The translations under genes and the position numbers were made by a program. From contig NC_135830.1 in NCBI RefSeq assembly GCF_964213995.1, positions 7,068,001 through 7,132,000 on the forward strand: a stretch of DNA of 64,000 nucleotides, given 5' to 3'. Below, one piece after another: positions 1-23,399 of this stretch. Source of the stretch: Mustelus asterias. Taxonomy: Eukaryota. How positions within the stretch are numbered: the stretch's first letter is position 1; every line of letters begins with the position of its first letter. The notes beneath the pieces were generated by a model. That model was not told the origin of the DNA and ran no database searches. It worked only from the letters and a program-made list of their open reading frames with translations.

Positions 1-575
1 ACTATCTCACACCTCTGCATTCTTGCTCTCACACACTGGCTCTCTCACAATCACTCTCTCACAAACATAGAACATGCACACACTCTAACACACACTCTTA
101 CACACAGACACAGTCTCTCACATAAGCACAGTCTCGCGCACACATTCGCTCTCTCACACACACATGCACTATGCCTCTCACATTCCCTCTTCCGTACACT
201 CTCACTTCGTCTCACACACATTCCCATGCTCTCTCTCTCATACGGACACTTGCACATGTATTCTCTCACACAGGCACATATTTCTCTCTCTTTCACACGC
301 TCACTCCCTTACACATTGTCTCACACACGCACAATCTTGCTCTCAAACACTGTCTCTCACAAACACCCTCTTTTTCACACGCACACAATCTCTCACACAG
401 TCCCTCCTTCTCTTACATACGAAAACACATGTATGTACAATGTATCTCTCTTTAAACACTCCACCTATCACAGACACATGTTCTCTCAACAGTTATTTCA
501 CTCACACACACTCACGCATCCATTCTGTCTAAGTTTCACACTTTTTCTCGCTCACACACACTCTCCCCGCCCCTC

Positions 576-606
<31 letters not shown>

Positions 607-1121
607 TCAAACACCCCACATTGCTTCTATCTCCCACACACATTGTACACATCTTTCGCACTCACACGCCATCCCATGCACAGTTTCACACACTGATGAA
701 CATATTATTTTGCTTTCCAATAGGCACTCCCTCTCACACACACTGTCTTTCACATGAACACAACACTCTCCCACACACACACCCTCCCTCAAGCACACAC
801 ACTCTCTTTCACAGACATCGTGTATCTCAAATAGACACACTCCCTTTCACATCAACATACACACACTCACACACAGAAGTACTCTTTCACACAGACTCCC
901 CACACACACTCTCCCCGCCCCTCCACACACATACATTTTCAAGAAGAGACACACTGTCACACACAAAGAATAACTCTTCAAACACACATTCTGTCTCACA
1001 CACACACATTATCTCACACATCCTTTCTCTCACGTACACTCTCTCCTCTTGCACGCACAGCCCACTGTCTCACCCACGTGCAAACGCATTCTATCATACA
1101 CAGGCATCCTCACACACACGT

Positions 1122-1155
<34 letters not shown>

Positions 1156-1290
1156 CCTCTATCTCTCTCTCTCTCCCTATCGCTCTCTCTGTCACACACA
1201 CCACAGACACACACACACACACTCTCTCTCTCTCTCTCTCTCTCACACACACTTTCGATCTCACATACGTCAGAGTGTCTGTCCTTGACA
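1..1290. repeat. Degenerate (CA)n/(CT)n low-complexity tract
   Basis: Almost G-free CA/CT dinucleotide-rich sequence; produces spurious His/Thr/Ser/Leu ORFs. Confidence 0.95.
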
Positions 1291-1297
1291 CCATAGA

Positions 1298-1605
1298 GTA
1301 GAATCATAGGATGCTACAGTGCAGAAGGAGGCCATTCAGCCCATCGAGTCTGCACCAATAGCAATCCCACCAAAGCCCTATCCCCATAACCACATGTATC
1401 TACCCTAACTAGTCCCCCTGACACTAAGGGGCAATTTAGCACGGCCAATCCACCGAACCCACACATCTTTGGACTGTGGGAGGAAACAGGAGCACCCGAA
1501 GGAAACCCAAACAGACACGGGGGGAACTTGCAAACTCCACACAGACAGTGACCCAAGTCGGGAATCCAACTCTGAGGCAGCAGCGCTAATCACTGTGTCA
1601 CCGCC
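1298..1605 (-). mobile_element. tRNA-derived SINE (shark HE1-like)
   Basis: Same sequence family as 19190-19518 and 50918-51255; CR1-like 3' tail (tagaatcatag) at left end. Confidence 0.8.
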
Positions 1606-2194
1606 ACCGCCCCCCCCGTCCCGACCCCCCCCCCACCCCCCCCCCCCCCCCCCACGACCCCGGTGGCATTTGAATGAGGGTGGGATCAAGGGGCCCGAGT
1701 AAAACTAGTCAATAAGAATCGGCGGGAAATTCTTCTCTGTTTGGAGTCATACTTAGCACAAAGCAACACGGTATTGGTGGTTGGAGGTCAAACATCTAGG
1801 TTCAGATTTCACTGCAGGATTTCGGCAGGGGAGTGTTCTGGGACTAACAATCTTCTACTGCTTCAACAGTGACATTCCATCCAACATGGGGTCAGAAGTA
1901 GGAATTTCCATGTGCTACACCGGACAAAAACACCCAAAAAATAAGAAGGGAATTGGCTGAGACCAAGGCCGCCTGGCTCCCAATACTGGTTGATTCCTGT
2001 GCGACCCATCCTAGTTTTGCTGTCAGCTTCCCTACAGCTCCCTCAGTCTGACTATTTGTTCACTGGTACGTGTTTCTTAAAGAAAGACACCGACATTAAA
2101 GCAGCTGCCCGGTGATTTACACATCCCTGTTACTGAAAGCTGATCAATGTGGAGAATCGGGAAAAGATCGATGGAGAGGAAGAGGTGGAGGTGG

Positions 2195-3690
2195 CCCACT
2201 GACTCTCTCACCCTCACCCACACTTCCTCACTCACGCTCAATCTCTCATCCTCACTCAAAGAACTTGACTCACTCACCCTCACTTACCCACCTTCCCTCG
2301 CTGACACACTCTCACTCATTCATCCCCACTCACAAATCCCAACTCACTCATCCCAACTCACTCATCCCAACTCACTCACCCTTGCTCACTCATCCACCCT
2401 CACACACTCAATTTCACACACTCAACCTCACACACTCAACTTCACACACTCAATTTCACGCACTCAACCTCAGAAACTCACTGATCCTCATTCACCCTGA
2501 GTCACTCACCCTCACACCCTCACTCACTCAAAATCACTCACACACATTCGCTCTCTCACTCTCACCAATCCTCACTCACTCACCCTCATTCACTCACATT
2601 CACACCCTCATTCACTCACCAGCACTCACTCACTCACACTCACTCGCCCTCACACACCCTCATTCACTCACTGTCACTCAGTCACCCACACTCACACGCT
2701 ATCACTCACTCAACCTCACTCACTAACCCTCAGTCACTCACTCAGAGCCTCAGTCACTCACCAACACTCATAGTCACCTTCGTTCACTCATCCCACTAAC
2801 CCATCCTCACTCACCCAGTCTCACTCACTCTCACTCACTCAGTCCACTTATCCACCCTCACTTATCCAGTCTCACTCACTCTCACTCACCCTCATTCACC
2901 CCACTTACCCACCTTCACTCATCCAGTCTCAATCACTCTCACTCACTCACCGCACTTACCCTCCCTCACTCATCCAGTCTCAATCACTCTCACTCACCCT
3001 CACTCACTCTCCCCACTTACCCACCCTCACTCACCCAGACGCACCCCCACACACTCAAGCTCAATTACCCTCTCCCTCTCACGTACGCCACCTGACCCAT
3101 TCAAACTCACTGAGACTCACGCACCTACATTCACTCACACACCCTCACATATTCACCATCACTCACGTTCACCCACCCTAACTCACAGATCCTCAATCAC
3201 TCATCCTCAGTCAAACACCTTTACTCACTCACCTTCACTCATCCACCCATCCGCATTCATTCTCCCTCACACACTCTCACACACCACCCTCAATAACACA
3301 CCCTGACTCACTCATTCTCTCACCCTCACTTACTAAGTCACATTCACTCCTCACCCTCATTCACTCGCTCTCACTCACCCACCTTCACTAACCTTCACGC
3401 ATCCTCACTCACTCACCCTCATTCATTCTCTCTTACCGACACTCACTCACCCACCTTCACTCACACATTCAGCCACCTTCACTCACCCACCCTCTCTCAC
3501 ACACCCTCATTTAGTCACGCTCTCTCACCCACACTCACTCACTCACCCTCAATCACTCATCCTCACTGAAAGAACTTCACTCACTCACCCTCACTTACCC
3601 ACCTTCCGTCACTCACACACCATCACTCATCCACTCTCACTCCTTCAATCGCTCACCCTCACGCACTCACATTCTCTCACTCACACTCGC
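2195..3690. repeat. Degenerate (ACTC)n/(CACTCACCCT)n C-rich repeat
   Basis: Recurrent actcactcaccc units over ~1.5 kb. Confidence 0.95.
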
Positions 3691-3789
3691 TAAACCTGTG
3701 TGTGGAGGTCTGCAACGAGAGAGAAGAAAGATCTCAAGCGGCAGTTAGTTTGGTGTTCAAATGTGGGAGCTGCCCTGCGAATGTGGAGA

Positions 3790-4430
3790 GCTGGGGGGAA
3801 TCCCTGGGGGCTCAGGGCCAAGGACAATGGCAAAGAGCCGTGGAGAACAGGAGGCGTGGTAAAGGGCAGAGAGCCGGGGGGGAAGGGCAGAGAGCCTGGG
3901 GAATGGGCCCACAGCCGGGCAACAGGGCTGAGAGCCGGGAAAGGGCAGAGAGTCAGGAGAAAGCGCAGAGAGCCAGAAGAAAGGGCAGAGAGCTAATAGA
4001 AAGGGCAGGGAGCCAGGTGAAAGGGCAGAGAACCAGGAGAAAGGACAGAGAGACCAGGGAAAGAGGAGAGAGCCAGGATAAAGGGCAGGGAGGCCGGGGA
4101 AAGGACAGAGAGCCGAGGAAAAGGACAAGAGAGCCCAGAGGAAAGGGCAGAGAGTCAAGGGGAAAGGCAGAGAGTCAGGGGGAAAGGGCAGAGAGCCAGG
4201 GGAAAGGGGAAAGTGGATAGGGAGCAGGGACACCGGGCAAAGAGCCGGGGGAAAGGGTAGGGAGCTGAGGGAAAGGGCAGGGAGCCGGGGGAGAGGGGAC
4301 AGAGCTGGAGGGAAGTGTAGAGAGCCAGGTGGAAGTGCGGAGAGCCGGGTGAAAGGGGAAAAGAGCTAGAGGGAATAGCAGAGAGCCAGGGGAAAGCGCA
4401 GAGAGTCGGGGAAAATGGGCAGAGAGTGGG
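3790..4430 (+). repeat. G/purine-rich ~20-bp tandem repeat (consensus ~GAAAGGGCAGAGAGCCAGGG)
   Basis: About 30 imperfect 20-bp units visible directly, strong purine skew on + strand. Confidence 0.9.
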
Positions 4431-5404
4431 TGATCGACGGGCGGAGTGAGGATGTGCAAAATAGACCTAGCACCACAACCAGATCATCTGTAATCTCAGT
4501 GAATAATGGAGGAGACTTCAGGGCCCGAATGGCCAACTCTTGCTATTAATGTCTGACCCTTCAATTAGACAATGTTGCAATTATTTGAATTTGTAATCAC
4601 ATTGAGAGTTTCCTGGTCATTCAGTAAGTATTCATTCCGAAGGTAGTTTTGAAGCAAAGTCACCAATCTTCGTTTTGTGGAGTGAGAGGCAGTGAGTTGG
4701 AGAGAGGAAGGGACATCAGTTAGTTTGAACACAGGCAATAGCCAAAACTACAATGTGGATATGCCGACGCTAGGTTGGGGTGGGCACAGTAAGGAGTCTC
4801 ACAACACCAGGTTAAAGTACAACAGGCTTATTTGGAATCGTGAGCTTTTGGAGCTCTTTCATCAGGTGAGTGGCTGATATGAATGAAGAGACAAGTTCTT
4901 CATCACAAAGTGCTGTTGTTTGAGAAATAGCTCGTGCCTGAAGTAATGGAGAAACTCTTTACACTTCTCTGTTAATCTAATGAATGGTATGTCATTACAA
5001 TGACATCAAAATGTTTTTGTCTTTCCAACCTGATAGAGGTCGAGACAGTGATGTGAGTTTCTACAAAGATGGCGATTCTCAAATGATAGGAGTAACAGAA
5101 TCTGAAAGGTGTATGTAGGTCTTAATCGGGAAATATTAAGTTAAGTTCATAATTCGAGACAAATCGTGATGTAGAAACATAGAAAATAGAAGCAGGAGTA
5201 GGCCATTCGGCCCTTTGACCCTGCTCTACCATTCACTTTAATCACAGCTCATCAATATCCTGACCCCGTCTACTACCCATATCCATTCATCCCTTTAGCC
5301 CCAAGAGCTATACCTAATATAGAAACTTACTTGTATAAATATGTTTGACAAATTAATAAACGCAGATAAGAGTCTAACTTGTTTAATCGACTATTCTTTC
5401 CCAG

Positions 5405-5704
5405 CGACACCGTCTCCGCCCACTCTCTACAGCCTGATCTCCTCCTGTCAGCAACACAACACCGGCGGCTCCGTCACCTATGGCTGTCTGGCGATGGACT
5501 ACTCCCCAGAAATCACCAGTCTCACCTGGAAGAAAAATGGACAGCTGATCACCACTGGATTTAAGACTTACCCATCAGTGAGAAACACGAAGGGAACCTA
5601 TACCCTGAGCAGCCAGTTAACCATCACCCAGTCAAAGGGAAAGTGCAGCAAAATCGACTGTGAGGTTCGACACAGCGGCTCAGTCAAGAGCATTGGAATG
5701 CAAT
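5405..5704 (+). CDS. IGHM: IgM heavy chain Cmu1 exon
   Basis: ttcccag acceptor, gtaagt donor, phase 1; [17 protein letters not shown]...[18 protein letters not shown]...CEVRHSGS, C1-set domain typical of shark Cmu1. Confidence 0.95.
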
Positions 5705-6663: not shown

Positions 6664-6975
6664 GCCCAATCGTTATCACCCCAACCGTTATCCTCACCGT
6701 GAGTTCCAGTGAAGAAATCACCAGCAGAAAATTTGCAACCATCGTCTGTTCAATCATTGATTTCCAGCCAAAGTCAATGACGGTGGAGTGGCTGAAGAAT
6801 GGACAACCCATGAATTCAGGAATTGTCACCTCTCCCGCCTGTGAAGTGAATGGGAACTTCTCGGCCAGCAGTCGGTTGACAGTCTCCGCTCAGGAATGGT
6901 TCAGCAAAGCGGTCTACACCTGCCAGGTCACTCATCAAGGATTCACTCAGAGTCAGAACATCAGCGGATCTCTGG
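6664..6975 (+). CDS. IGHM: IgM heavy chain Cmu2 exon
   Basis: gaag acceptor, gtaag donor, phase 1; [41 protein letters not shown]...YTCQVTH. Confidence 0.95.
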
Positions 6976-7888: not shown

Positions 7889-8197
7889 ATCCTCCCCAGT
7901 GCCCTGATACCACAGTGACGATACAGCCACCACCAATAGAACAGGTCTTACTGGAGGCGACCGTGACCTTAACCTGCATCATTTCTCATGCTCCTTATGG
8001 AGTCAATGTGTCCTGGATCCGAGACAGGAAGTATTTGAAATCAGAGATTGCCGAAAAGCCAGGAGCGAATCCTGACAGCGTGGTCAGCAACTTAAACATC
8101 TCGACACAAGCCTGGCTGAGTGCGGCTGTGTTTGACTGCGTGGTGAGCCATCAGGATCTGCCGACTCCTTTAAGAAAATCCATCCACAAGGAAACAG
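7889..8197 (+). CDS. IGHM: IgM heavy chain Cmu3 exon
   Basis: ttcacag acceptor, gtgag donor; [17 protein letters not shown]...VSW...[22 protein letters not shown]. Confidence 0.95.
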
Positions 8198-8698: not shown

Positions 8699-9090
8699 AT
8701 CCAAATCCGCGGGAACCGTTCGTCTCTGTCCTCTTGCCCTCGGCAGAAGAAGTCTCCGCTCAGAGATTCGTCTCCCTCAGCTGCTTAGTGAGACGTTTCT
8801 CCCCTCGAGAGATCTTCGTCAAGTGGACCGTCAACGACAAGCCGGTGAATCCTGGGAACTATAAGAACACCGAGGTGGTCGCGGAGAGCGGGAATAGCTC
8901 CTTCTTCATGTACAGCCTGTTATCCATTGCAGCAGAGGAATGGTCCAGCGGCGCTTCTTACTCCTGTGTGGTGGGACATGAAGCCATCCCCTTGAAGATC
9001 ATCAACAGAACAGTTGACAAATCCAGCGGTAAACCCAGTTTTGTGAACATTTCCCTTGCACTGATGGACACCGTTAATTCATGTCAATGA
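8699..9090 (+). CDS. IGHM: IgM heavy chain Cmu4 exon plus secretory tailpiece (internal donor after 9028 for membrane form)
   Basis: ctgcag acceptor; [18 protein letters not shown]...[11 protein letters not shown]; tail [20 protein letters not shown] with N-glycan sequon and penultimate Cys; G|GTAAA internal donor. Confidence 0.97.
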
Positions 9091-10189: not shown

Positions 10190-12160
10190 AAAAATACACA
10201 CACTGACAATACTCCACAAAACTGTCACAATTATAAATACACACATAAGCGCACACACACACACTCACACTCACACACATACACACACACACATCGACAC
10301 AAATGCACAACTACACACACAAATACACATACTCACACATATGCACACAAATACAGAAAGACACATGTAAATATACACACACAAACGCATGCATATACCC
10401 CCACACACATACATATACAGAAATAGGGACAGGCACATTCAAATACAGACACAGAAACACACAAATACACAACAGATACACTTTCACACACCATAGGTAC
10501 ACTCAATACTTGCACAGACGAACACACATGCAGAGAAACAAGAATGCACACACAAATGCACTCATGGGCAAAACATGCACAAACAAAAATACACACTTAC
10601 ACAAATACACCCACACAAAAATACACCCAGACACAAACACATCCGTACACAAATATACATAGGGACACACCCATTCTCTCTCTCTCTTTCTCTCTCACAC
10701 ACACACACACATACACACGCACACACACACACACACACATAAGAACATAAGAAATAGGAGCAGGAGTAGGCCATCTGGCCCTTCGAGCTTGCCCCGCCAT
10801 TCAACAAGATCATGGCTGATCTGAAGCGAATCAGTTCCACTTACCCGCCTGCTCCCCATATCCCCTAATTCCCTTATCGATCAGAAAACTATCTACCCGT
10901 GATTTAAGCATATTCAACGAGGAAGCCTCCACCACTTCAATGGGCAGAGAATTCCAGAGATTCACTACCCTCTGAGAGAAGAAGTTCCCCCTCAACTCTG
11001 TTCTGAACCGGCCCCCCCTTATTTTGAGGCTGTGCCCTCTAGTTCTGGTTTCCCTTCTAAGTGGAATGAATCTCGCCACCTCGACCCTATCCAGCCCCTT
11101 CATTATCTTATATGTCTCTATAAGATCACCCCTCATCCTTCTAAACTCACATACGAACACATAGACACGCGCTCTTGTACAAACAGACACTAAAACAACA
11201 ACATACACACACATAATCAAATATGTACAAACGCACACATGTACACATGAAACACACAAGTACATACACATACACATACGTGAGTAGGTACAGACCCAAA
11301 CACAAACACATACATGCATAGACACAATACAGACAGATACACACGCATGCAGACCCACATAAATACACAAGCACATACTTAGACTCAAATAAATACATAT
11401 ATTAGCACACGTTCACGCTGATAGGAATATAGATATAAAGACACACAATGTTATACACATTCACAAACATATATGGAAATACATATAAACAAATCACCAG
11501 ACTGCATATAGAAGAACAGACAGCAAAACATTTACACACAAACATGTTGACGCAAACATTAACATGCTCATAGAACAGAACACCATAGCACACATTACTA
11601 CACATCGAAACACAAATATACATCAACGCACCGTTATAAAGAATGTCAACACGTGTATACATACACTGACATGTTAACAGGCGTGCACACAGACACATGG
11701 AGAAACAGACGCACACAGAAAGGGAAACAGTAAGTAGTCACCTGATGATGGGGCAACGCTCCGAAAGCTCGTGCAACCAAATAAACCTGTTGGACTTTAA
11801 CCTGGTGTTGTGAGACTACTTACTGTGCCGACCCCAGTCCAACGCCGGCAACTCCACAGAAAGGGAAACAAACATTACTAGAGTGACAGAAATTAACACA
11901 GAGCAATAGGCATAAACACATGTGCACGCATTAAGAATGGCATTAATATATATTCATAGACTTCACACAATAATAGAGTCATATATACACAATGACAAAA
12001 GAATAAAATATGCGCACAGATGCAGACACACAACTACACAAATCAACAATCACTGGCAAATGTACGCGCACATTAACACTCATAATCACATATTAACTCA
12101 GAGCCAAAGATTAATGCAGAGCACGAGATGCTCATGCATACGCACACAAATGCAAAATCT
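10190..12160. repeat. Degenerate (CA/TA)n tract with nested CR1 3' fragment (10738-11146, minus) and Penelope-derived insert
   Basis: Low-complexity CA/TA sequence; nested segment encodes RRMRGDLIETYKIMKG...FFSQRVVNLWNSLP (CR1 ORF2 C-terminus). Confidence 0.85.
11730..11854 (+). mobile_element. Penelope-like element terminal fragment with minimal hammerhead motif (11739-11773)
   Basis: CAC-CTGATGA-tGGGGCaacGCTCC-GAAAGCTC-GTG; flanked by direct repeat CACAGAAAGGGAAACA (11714-11729, 11855-11870). Confidence 0.7.
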
Positions 12161-12729: not shown

Positions 12730-12857
12730 ACTCCACCGACCGCATCTGGATTGAAGACAATGAGGATGATAACAGTAACATCTGGACAACGGCTTCCACA
12801 TTCATTGTCCTGTTCTTCCTGAGCATTTTCTACAGCACTGCGGTCACTCTGGTGAAG
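12730..12857 (+). CDS. IGHM: IgM TM1 exon
   Basis: cccctag acceptor, gtgag donor; (D)STDRIWIEDNEDDNSNIWTTASTFIVLFFLSIFYSTAVTLVK with conserved IgM transmembrane (CART) motif; in frame with Cmu4 internal donor. Confidence 0.95.
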
Positions 12858-12993
12858 GTGAGATGATTGAATGCACTCACATATCAAACTGACAGAATGG
12901 ACTTGAAAAATCTCTCAATGTTCCATTAAAAACTCTAACTTTAATATCCCGCATCATAAACAACTGCTTCATTATTGTATCTTTCTTTTACAG

Positions 12994-23238: not shown

Positions 23239-23399
23239 CACAGTGATGCAGAACACGGAGAGAGCTGTACAAAAACCTAAACATGGTGAGGATTACAGAC
23301 ACAGTGATACAGAACACGGAGAGAGCTGCACAAAAACCTGAACATGGTGAGGATTACAGACGCAGTGATACAGAACACGGAGAGAGATGTGCTGAAAAC
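23239..23399 (+). repeat. Three tandem 23-RSS copies (61-bp period)
   Basis: CACAGTG-23-ACAAAAACC at 23239 and 23300; degenerate CGCAGTG-23-GCTGAAAAC at 23361. Confidence 0.95.

What the first reader, a model, noticed from the sequence alone, without database searches (positions are those of the whole stretch)
3790..4430. Switch-region-like G-rich tandem repeat ~1 kb upstream of Cmu1
Seen: ~640 bp of ~20-bp units (GAAAGGGCAGAGAGCCAGGG), G-clustered on the non-template strand; typical units carry GGCA (RGYW) and AGCC (WRCY). Known: these are AID hotspot motifs; mammalian S regions are G-rich tandem repeats 5' of C exons that form R-loops/G4; shark isotype switching was reported to occur without recognisable S regions. 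Inference: a candidate primordial S-like element in the Smu position. Caveat: palindromic AGCT is rare here and similar minisatellites may be common genome-wide.
Basis: partly seen in the sequence, partly recalled or inferred. Interest (0 to 1): 0.7.

Follow-up and report, generated by a model that had tools for sequence, protein, structure and literature searches.

The report
Aged minisatellite in shark IgM intron
A worn, G-rich 20-base repeat sits about 1 kb before the first constant exon of this shark's IgM antibody genes and is predicted to form RNA-DNA loops, but it is poor in the key class-switch motif, missing from the IgW and IgNAR genes checked, and also forms longer arrays away from antibody genes, so it is most likely an ordinary repeat copied along with the gene.

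Summary
The repeat is real: 3861-4426, period 20, 27.6 copies, 70% matches. It lies in the J-C intron of a houndshark-type IgM cluster, about 980 bp before Cmu1 and about 9.2 kb after JH. The sense strand is 47% G and is the only predicted sense-strand R-loop site in 94 kb. The array is present in 35 of 37 IgM copies examined and in three other organisms' contigs.

It fails as a switch region. It has 4 AGCT (7/kb, against 50/kb in a working synthetic S region), WGCW below shuffle level, and a length of 0.57 kb. None of 3 IgW and 3 IgNAR loci carries a counterpart. It varies more than its flanks among paralogues. The same unit forms young arrays of 18-273 units in a non-Ig repeat family, giving at least 386 of 753 genome-wide motif matches.

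Verdict: an old minisatellite, likely inherited passively. A role as an IgM-only break-prone site is untested (about 10%). This scan reached the same reading before on other copies in this genome.

The parts
3861..4426 (+). Decayed 20-bp G/A-rich minisatellite, 27.6 units, in the JH-Cmu1 intron (the finding)
   Evidence: TRF; composition and motif counts; present in 35 of 37 IgM copies examined
3690..3860 (+). Unique spacer and G-rich lead-in between the C-rich and the G-rich arrays; the predicted R-loop start (3793) lies here
   Evidence: 93-100% identical in close paralogues, 80% in one divergent paralogue, no hit at E<1e-10 in five others
2202..3688 (+). C-rich (TCAC/CTCACC) low-complexity array, inherited together with the G-rich array
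   Evidence: TRF; found upstream of the G-rich array in paralogues
4753..4835 (.). Short high-copy interspersed repeat fragment (SINE-like label is my inference)
   Evidence: hits at unrelated loci; very high contig depth
5172..5318 (.). Second high-copy interspersed repeat fragment
   Evidence: very high contig depth; hits at unrelated loci
5405..5704 (+). IgM Cmu1 exon
   Evidence: open frame; 82% to Triakis IgM P0003; splice sites read
6664..6975 (+). IgM Cmu2 exon
   Evidence: splice sites read
7889..8197 (+). IgM Cmu3 exon
   Evidence: splice sites read
8699..9087 (+). IgM Cmu4 exon with secretory tail
   Evidence: 96% to Triakis scyllium IgM
12750..12865 (+). IgM transmembrane exon (approximate ends)
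   Evidence: motif scan

Best explanation
This is a decayed 20-bp G-rich minisatellite in the J-C intron of a shark IgM cluster that was likely copied passively each time the cluster duplicated and likely has no selected role in isotype switching. Shown: array, position, strand, presence in most IgM paralogues with matching flanks, and the same unit in young arrays of a non-Ig repeat family. Inferred: it expanded by slippage or unequal exchange from a unit like that of the young arrays before the deepest split among these IgM copies, stopped being homogenised, and then decayed by point mutation (including methyl-CpG decay at the CCG position, which would give today's AGCCA units and the few AGCT sites) and by unit-sized indels. 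Being inside the IgM transcript and 47% G, it is predicted to form R-loops and G-quadruplexes; on this reading that is a by-product.
For: (1) Same unit outside Ig loci: arrays of 273, 75 and 75 units at 92-95% homogeneity on C27, C35, C1461 with flanks unrelated to the IgM intron, and in 7 of 20 further fetched copies of that family (20 of the 40 listed). No Ig hit by tblastn in 237,950 bases around them, while the IgM, IgW and IgNAR controls hit. These give at least 386 of 753 matches to a degenerate 24-mer. The two unit consensuses differ at 2 of 20 positions, both mixed in one set. (2) No constraint seen: among 25 distinct full-length paralogues, mean pairwise substitutions are 0.061 in the array vs 0.034-0.041 in intron flanks, and indel events 6.2/kb vs 0-2.7/kb; length runs 313-685 bp; 2 of 14 Cmu1-selected copies lack it. 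(3) AGCT median 5.3/kb over 35 arrays (range 2.2-13.5); WGCW 6 vs 12.1 in shuffles. (4) 0 of 3 IgW and 0 of 3 IgNAR loci have the unit, a comparable G-rich array or a predicted R-loop site, although reviews report shark switching both ways between IgM and IgW (PMC4279169, passages). (5) All 216 anchored units of the C27 array read AGCCG; the window array has AGCCG 6, AGCCA 6, AGCTG 2, AGCTA 2, and all four AGCT sit at that unit position. (6) No germline recombination signal at the array: four-gamete incompatibility 0-0.05 across it vs 0.15-0.42 in the 3' flank.
Against: It is the only sense-strand R-loop-forming sequence that my scan finds in 94 kb (3793-4662) and has the top G4Hunter score. 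Its 47% G equals the 46% that gave efficient switching in a synthetic mouse S region (PMC4245955, passages). It is kept in 35 of 37 IgM copies, six of them at only about 71% identity, always at 46-48% G, and contigs of three other organisms cover it, two of them bridging into the 3' flank. WRCY+RGYW density is in the top 4% of local windows, and 6 units carry WRC targets on both strands a few bases apart. In mouse, S-gamma3 with lower AGCT density became a strong donor when put under E-mu (PMC9149575, passages), so low AGCT does not rule out breakage. Divergence figures in a repeat can be inflated by misalignment, and 20 of the paralogues were picked by likeness to this array. Fast sequence change is also expected of true S regions (recalled). 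Shared descent of the two array sets is inferred, not shown. No B-cell data were tested.
Confidence: 0.8

Rival explanations
1. An ordinary minisatellite by origin that has become a break-prone site: transcription of the rearranged IgM gene would form an R-loop/G4 at the array, expose WRC sites on both strands to AID, and bias IgM-to-IgM inter-cluster switching or homology-guided exchange to this shared stretch.
For: Only predicted sense-strand R-loop site; 47% G and 41 GGG runs; the RNA folds 19.6 kcal/mol lower with G-quadruplexes allowed; shared by 35 of 37 IgM copies, so it could serve as both donor and acceptor; one of 14 Cmu1-selected copies has a roughly 3-kb deletion ending inside the array at a 3-base microhomology.
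Against: 4 AGCT only; about 9 kb from JH with no promoter shown nearby, whereas mammalian S regions lie 200-600 bp from their promoters (PMC4245955, passages); cannot explain IgM-IgW exchange, as the IgW loci checked lack it; one deletion end in a 566-bp target is within chance; no paralogue recombination peak. The R-loop rule is my own implementation of a recalled rule, and the authors of PMC4245955 endorse no such predictor.
Confidence: 0.12
2. A primordial switch region, ancestral to or equivalent to tetrapod S-mu, kept by selection.
For: Position 5' of Cmu1, tandem structure, G-rich non-template strand; persistence across paralogues and in relatives.
Against: [quoted passage not shown]
Confidence: 0.03
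3. A transcriptional element: the C-rich array (2202-3688) and the G-rich array face away from a 170-bp spacer, a skew flip like that of a divergently transcribed promoter, and could mark an intronic promoter or a polymerase pause site.
For: GC skew goes from -0.88 to +0.6 across 3690-3860; both arrays score as R-loop sites, on opposite strands; both are co-inherited.
Against: The spacer is not recognisable in five of six divergent paralogues; C-rich CA/CT tracts fill much of 1-3700 and 10200-11600, so a skew flip is easy to get by chance; the likeness to promoters is recalled; no transcript data.
Confidence: 0.05

Closest known systems
GC-rich, strand-skewed vertebrate minisatellites (VNTRs); class description recalled, no call
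   Same: Head-to-tail 20-bp unit, purine/pyrimidine strand asymmetry, copy-number variation (313-685 bp in IgM; 18-273 units in the non-Ig family), young and decayed arrays of one unit.
   Different: The IgM arrays are old (65-76% matches) and multiplied by gene-cluster duplication; allelic length variation was not tested.
Mammalian IgH switch regions S-mu, S-gamma3, S-alpha (PMC4245955 and PMC9149575, passages)
   Same: Tandem repeat in the intron 5' of a C exon; G-rich, G-clustered non-template strand at 47% G; predicted R-loop/G4.
   Different: 0.57 kb; AGCT 7/kb vs 50/kb in a working 720-bp synthetic S; WGCW below shuffle level; about 9 kb from JH with no promoter shown; found before IgM only, not the IgW or IgNAR loci checked; unit shared with non-Ig DNA.
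Xenopus S regions (described in PMC4279169 and PMC8201067, passages)
   Same: Position upstream of a C exon in an ectotherm IgH gene.
   Different: Xenopus S is AT-rich (AGCT-dense, recalled); this array is G/A-rich and AGCT-poor.
Shark inter-cluster isotype switching without S regions (Zhu 2012, Zhang 2013; seen only through reviews PMC4279169, PMC4588147, PMC8201067, PMC5192425)
   Same: The array lies in the J-C intron, where I recall the DNA fusion sites were reported (primary paper not held).
   Different: Reported switching runs both ways between IgM and IgW; the array is IgM-only in the loci checked, and no link to junctions is shown.

Membership tests
IgH switch (S) region | Tandem repeat in the intron 5' of a CH1 exon | tested here: met
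IgH switch (S) region | G-rich, G-clustered non-template strand (mammalian type, 35-50% G) | tested here: met
   47% G, 41 GGG runs; benchmark PMC4245955
IgH switch (S) region | Dense palindromic AGCT/WGCW AID targets | tested here: not met
   4 AGCT (7/kb; p=0.03 vs shuffles, but 11% of local windows reach it); WGCW 6 vs 12.1 in shuffles; median 5.3/kb in 35 arrays
IgH switch (S) region | Multi-kilobase length (typical range recalled; a 720-bp synthetic S worked in PMC4245955) | tested here: not met
   566 bp here; 313-685 bp in paralogues
IgH switch (S) region | A counterpart before each isotype that takes part in switching | tested here: not met
   0 of 3 IgW and 0 of 3 IgNAR loci; other IgW/IgNAR loci may exist that the searches did not score
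IgH switch (S) region | Own upstream promoter / I exon and sterile transcript within a few hundred bases | not testable with these tools
   no RNA holder listed for this stretch
IgH switch (S) region | R-loop formation in activated B cells | tested here: inconclusive
   predicted only (recalled rule)
IgH switch (S) region | AID-dependent breaks and switch junctions concentrated in it | not testable with these tools
   needs B-cell DNA
Minisatellite (VNTR) | Head-to-tail unit of about 10-100 bp | tested here: met
   period 20
Minisatellite (VNTR) | Variation in unit number between copies | tested here: met
   (between paralogues; alleles not tested)
Minisatellite (VNTR) | Non-coding and no more conserved than flanking DNA | tested here: met
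   intronic; 0.061 vs 0.034-0.041 substitutions

The most novel reading that the evidence does not exclude
Houndshark IgM clusters share an intronic G-rich repeat that forms R-loops/G4 in B cells and focuses AID-initiated inter-cluster switching: a repeat co-opted as a switch-like element independently of tetrapods, in a group said to have none, showing how an S region can start from a passenger minisatellite.
Probability: 0.1. Interest if true: 0.75.

Novelty: new member of a known kind. Interest (0 to 1): 0.18.

Why it matters
On the best reading it matters little: an old intronic minisatellite, useful as a marker of IgM cluster history and as a warning that G-richness in the S-mu position is not enough to name a switch region. 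It does give one cheap, sharp test of an open question, namely what guides shark isotype switching. The array is the one strongly G-skewed, R-loop-prone stretch of a 10.7-kb intron shared by most IgM clusters, so junction mapping would show at once whether breaks favour it. If they did, the statement that sharks switch without S-like DNA would need revising.

Tried and rejected
(1) Subtelomeric satellite: arrays near the starts of C27 and C35 suggested it, but no triple telomere hexamer was found in the fetched stretches and the arrays sit inside a dispersed high-copy family; dropped. (2) A coding gene or Ig exon around the non-Ig arrays: 80 open frames from C27:25-50 kb gave only a reverse-transcriptase fragment and two sub-threshold Pfam hits; tblastn with three Ig chains found nothing. 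The family remains unidentified. (3) G-skewed patch in IgNAR introns (G4Hunter 0.57-0.65): the one I read looks like a LINE fragment with a short G run, not an array. (4) Gene-conversion hotspot: 16 of 17 long identical tracts between divergent paralogues fall in the array, but they all involve one near-identical group and loci picked for likeness to this array, so I give it no weight. (5) Excess variation at AID hotspots in the germline: not seen (8 of 46 WRC/GYW sites vary vs 76 of 276 other C/G sites). (6) Expression: no RNA holder listed; no evidence either way. Organism D's contigs leave most of the array uncovered; a hole proves nothing. (7) Conservation in the more distant organisms stays open. 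(8) Primary papers (Zhu 2012, Zhang 2013, Zhu 2011, Hsu 2016, Lee 2008, Ott 2021) are not held; they or their supplements may describe repeats and junction positions in nurse shark introns. (9) Paper searches listed no title on this repeat; I saw listings only, so this is weak.

Full report
Observation. Tandem Repeats Finder gives an array at 3861-4426 with period 20, 27.6 copies and 70% matches; 3790-3860 is a G-rich lead-in. The plus strand is 47% G and 4% T. Its mean G4Hunter score (0.91) and G skew (0.54) exceed all 1846 overlapping 566-bp background windows in 94 kb of window plus upstream DNA.

Context. The window is G000:C71:7068001-7132000 of a 3.68-Gb genome. Four constant exons and a transmembrane exon follow the array. 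Cmu4 is 96% identical to Triakis scyllium IgM, so this is a houndshark-type IgM gene. Upstream of the window lie an open VH, RSSs for two D segments and one JH, 6.9 to 5.3 kb before base 1, on the same strand. The intron is about 10.7 kb; the array starts about 9.2 kb after JH and ends 979 bp before Cmu1, with its G-rich strand as the non-template strand.

Other IgM copies. A search with the array returned 43 rows (40 of 187 candidates scored). All 20 loci fetched, the top 20, have the same flanks and Cmu1 about 1 kb downstream. To avoid circularity I took 14 Cmu1 hits that were not in that list: 12 carry the array, six of them at about 71% identity; one has lost nearly all of it in a deletion of about 3 kb and one shows no trace in the 4 kb fetched. 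With three more IgM loci the count is 35 of 37, 313-685 bp long, 46-48% G. Several loci are identical pairs, so these are not 37 independent events. Contigs of organisms B, C and G cover every bin of the stretch, and pieces in C and G bridge the array's end into the unique 3' flank (G: 39 differences in about 240 bases); names are coded, so the depth of time is unknown.

The same unit outside Ig loci. An exact 24-mer had 30 matches and a degenerate one 753, with 0 for the reversed controls. The first places listed were arrays of 273 units (C27) and 75 units (C35) at 94-95% homogeneity, plus 75 units on C1461. Their flanks match each other but not the IgM intron. That flank has 2468 first-look candidates, the 40 scored being 98-100% identical. 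Of 20 of these 40 that I fetched (picked by hand down the list), 7 carry arrays of 18-178 units, two cut by the end of the fetch, and 13 have other DNA at that place. Three Ig chains find nothing by tblastn in the 237,950 bases fetched, while the IgM, IgW and IgNAR controls hit. These ten contigs account for at least 386 of the 753 matches. A two-unit pattern tuned to the IgM variant gave 53 matches; those I could check lie in IgM loci except one in the C1461 array, and many were not fetched. So the unit was seen in two settings, not scattered at random.

Age and decay. The consensus units of the two sets differ at 2 of 20 positions, each mixed in one set. All 216 anchored C27 units read AGCCG; in the window array that position reads AGCCG 6, AGCCA 6, AGCTG 2 and AGCTA 2 times, and the four AGCT sites are the last two kinds. 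Unit-to-unit matches within an array (65-76%) are about equal to the identity between the most distant paralogues (about 71%), which fits an array that stopped being homogenised near the deepest split sampled (inference). Common descent of the two sets is likely but unproven, since GA-rich seeds are common in this genome.

AID motifs. AGCT 4 (7/kb; shuffles 1.5, p=0.03; 11% of local windows have as many). WGCW 6 vs 12.1 in shuffles. RGYW 22 vs 25.2. WRCY 20 vs 8.9, from the AGCC in the unit. WRCY+RGYW is in the top 4% of local windows, but WRC and GYW per kb are below the window average. PMC4245955 (passages) names AGCT and GGGG as the shared motifs of mammalian S regions, used 720-bp synthetic regions with 4 AGCT per 80 bp (50/kb), found better switching at 46% than at 29% G, and places S regions 200-600 bp from their promoters. 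The array matches the G density and misses the AGCT density sevenfold. PMC9149575 (passages) shows that a lower-AGCT S region can act as a strong donor under E-mu, which tempers this point.

Other isotypes. Three IgNAR loci on C71 (found; two 85-99% identical to Triakis IgNAR exons, the third 49-73% and without a C1 hit) and three IgW-type loci on C185 (found with a ray protein that I take to be IgW from its layout) were read from V to the first C exon found. None has the unit, a BLAST hit to the array or a comparable array; best G4Hunter over 566 bp is 0.38-0.65 in IgNAR and 0.45-0.54 in IgW. JH was not located in one IgW locus. Reviews say shark loci lack S regions and that switching runs both ways between IgM and IgW (PMC4279169, PMC4588147, PMC8201067, PMC5192425; passages). 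An element needed for that exchange should not be IgM-only.

Constraint and recombination. In an alignment of 25 distinct paralogues (27 of 36 loci aligned over the full stretch; the divergent ones dropped out), mean pairwise substitution is 0.061 in the array, 0.034-0.041 in intron flanks and 0.060 in Cmu1; indel events are 6.2/kb vs 0-2.7. Four-gamete incompatibility is lowest across the array (0-0.05) and highest in the 3' flank (up to 0.42). Misalignment and the way loci were picked weaken both results.

What speaks for a role. My implementation of a recalled R-loop rule marks 3793-4662 as the only sense-strand site in 94 kb and finds none in the six IgW/IgNAR stretches; RNA folding gains 19.6 kcal/mol with G-quadruplexes. 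Six units hold WRC targets on both strands a few bases apart. The array is old and nearly always kept. These leave open an IgM-only break-prone site, at about 0.1.

Verdict. Works like: a G-rich minisatellite, predicted to be R-loop/G4-prone. Member of: minisatellites, yes; switch regions, no (AGCT density, length and isotype spread tested and not met; promoter and junctions untestable here). Seven earlier notes of this scan on other copies in this genome reach the same reading; they are not independent support, and my reading was written down before I saw them. Other papers opened: PMC12227049 (start of abstract and passages), PMC2435157 and PMC6795676 (passages; nothing on this repeat). The primary shark switching papers were not held, so a prior description of such a repeat in nurse shark cannot be excluded. 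Interest 0.18.

Noticed in passing
window 17488-62700: Directly after the IgM cluster come a NAR-like V (48% to Triakis IgNAR V; NAR-TCR label recalled), TCR-like and IgH-like V segments, RSS-flanked D candidates and three TCR-type J segments (53409, 61770, 62617). The NAR-like V has about 55 near-full-length relatives at 65-100%, many on the contigs that also hold IgM, so IgM and TCR-delta-type cassettes look amplified together. IgH linkage to TCR alpha/delta is reported in PMC12227049 (start of abstract).
   Followed up: partly
G000:C27:25761-47530 (L031-L033), C35, C1461, L058-L077: An unidentified high-copy repeat family (shared block of about 20 kb, 94-98% identity; 2468 flank candidates) in which some copies carry a young 18-273-unit array of the same 20-bp unit and others carry 2-3 kb of different DNA at that place.
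   Followed up: partly
L057 (G000:C479, about 20.8 kb): An IgM copy with a deletion of about 3 kb joining a short repeat at window-equivalent ~1350 to the array's last units (~4383) at a 3-base microhomology; germline status not checked.
   Followed up: partly
window 2202-3688: 1.5-kb C-rich array that scores as an R-loop site on the antisense strand; GC skew flips from -0.88 to +0.6 across the spacer to the G-rich array.
   Followed up: partly
L084-L086 (G000:C71:2.92-2.93 Mb, minus strand): Divergent IgNAR-like gene with V and J already joined in one frame and no C1 exon found.
   Followed up: no
L087-L088 (G000:C185:391-396 kb, minus strand): IgW-type V that runs on into extra D-like residues before its RSS, only 3.8 kb from the first C exon; may be partly pre-joined; JH not located.
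   Followed up: no
window 23239-23390: 61-bp tandem duplication that gives a V segment two perfect 23-spacer RSSs (23239, 23300).
   Followed up: no
G000:C71:13.14 Mb; C2355/C2511; C2117/C1179; C1457/C127: Identical or near-identical pairs of IgM loci, including an inverted copy of this one on the same contig: very recent duplications or uncollapsed haplotypes, which inflate copy counts.
   Followed up: no
window 4427-5400 across paralogues: IgM paralogues look mosaic: the nearest relatives for the array differ from those for Cmu1, and site incompatibility peaks at 4650-5250.
   Followed up: partly
P0007: A database protein labelled Aeromonas veronii is 94% identical to this shark Cmu4; likely host contamination of that record.
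   Followed up: no
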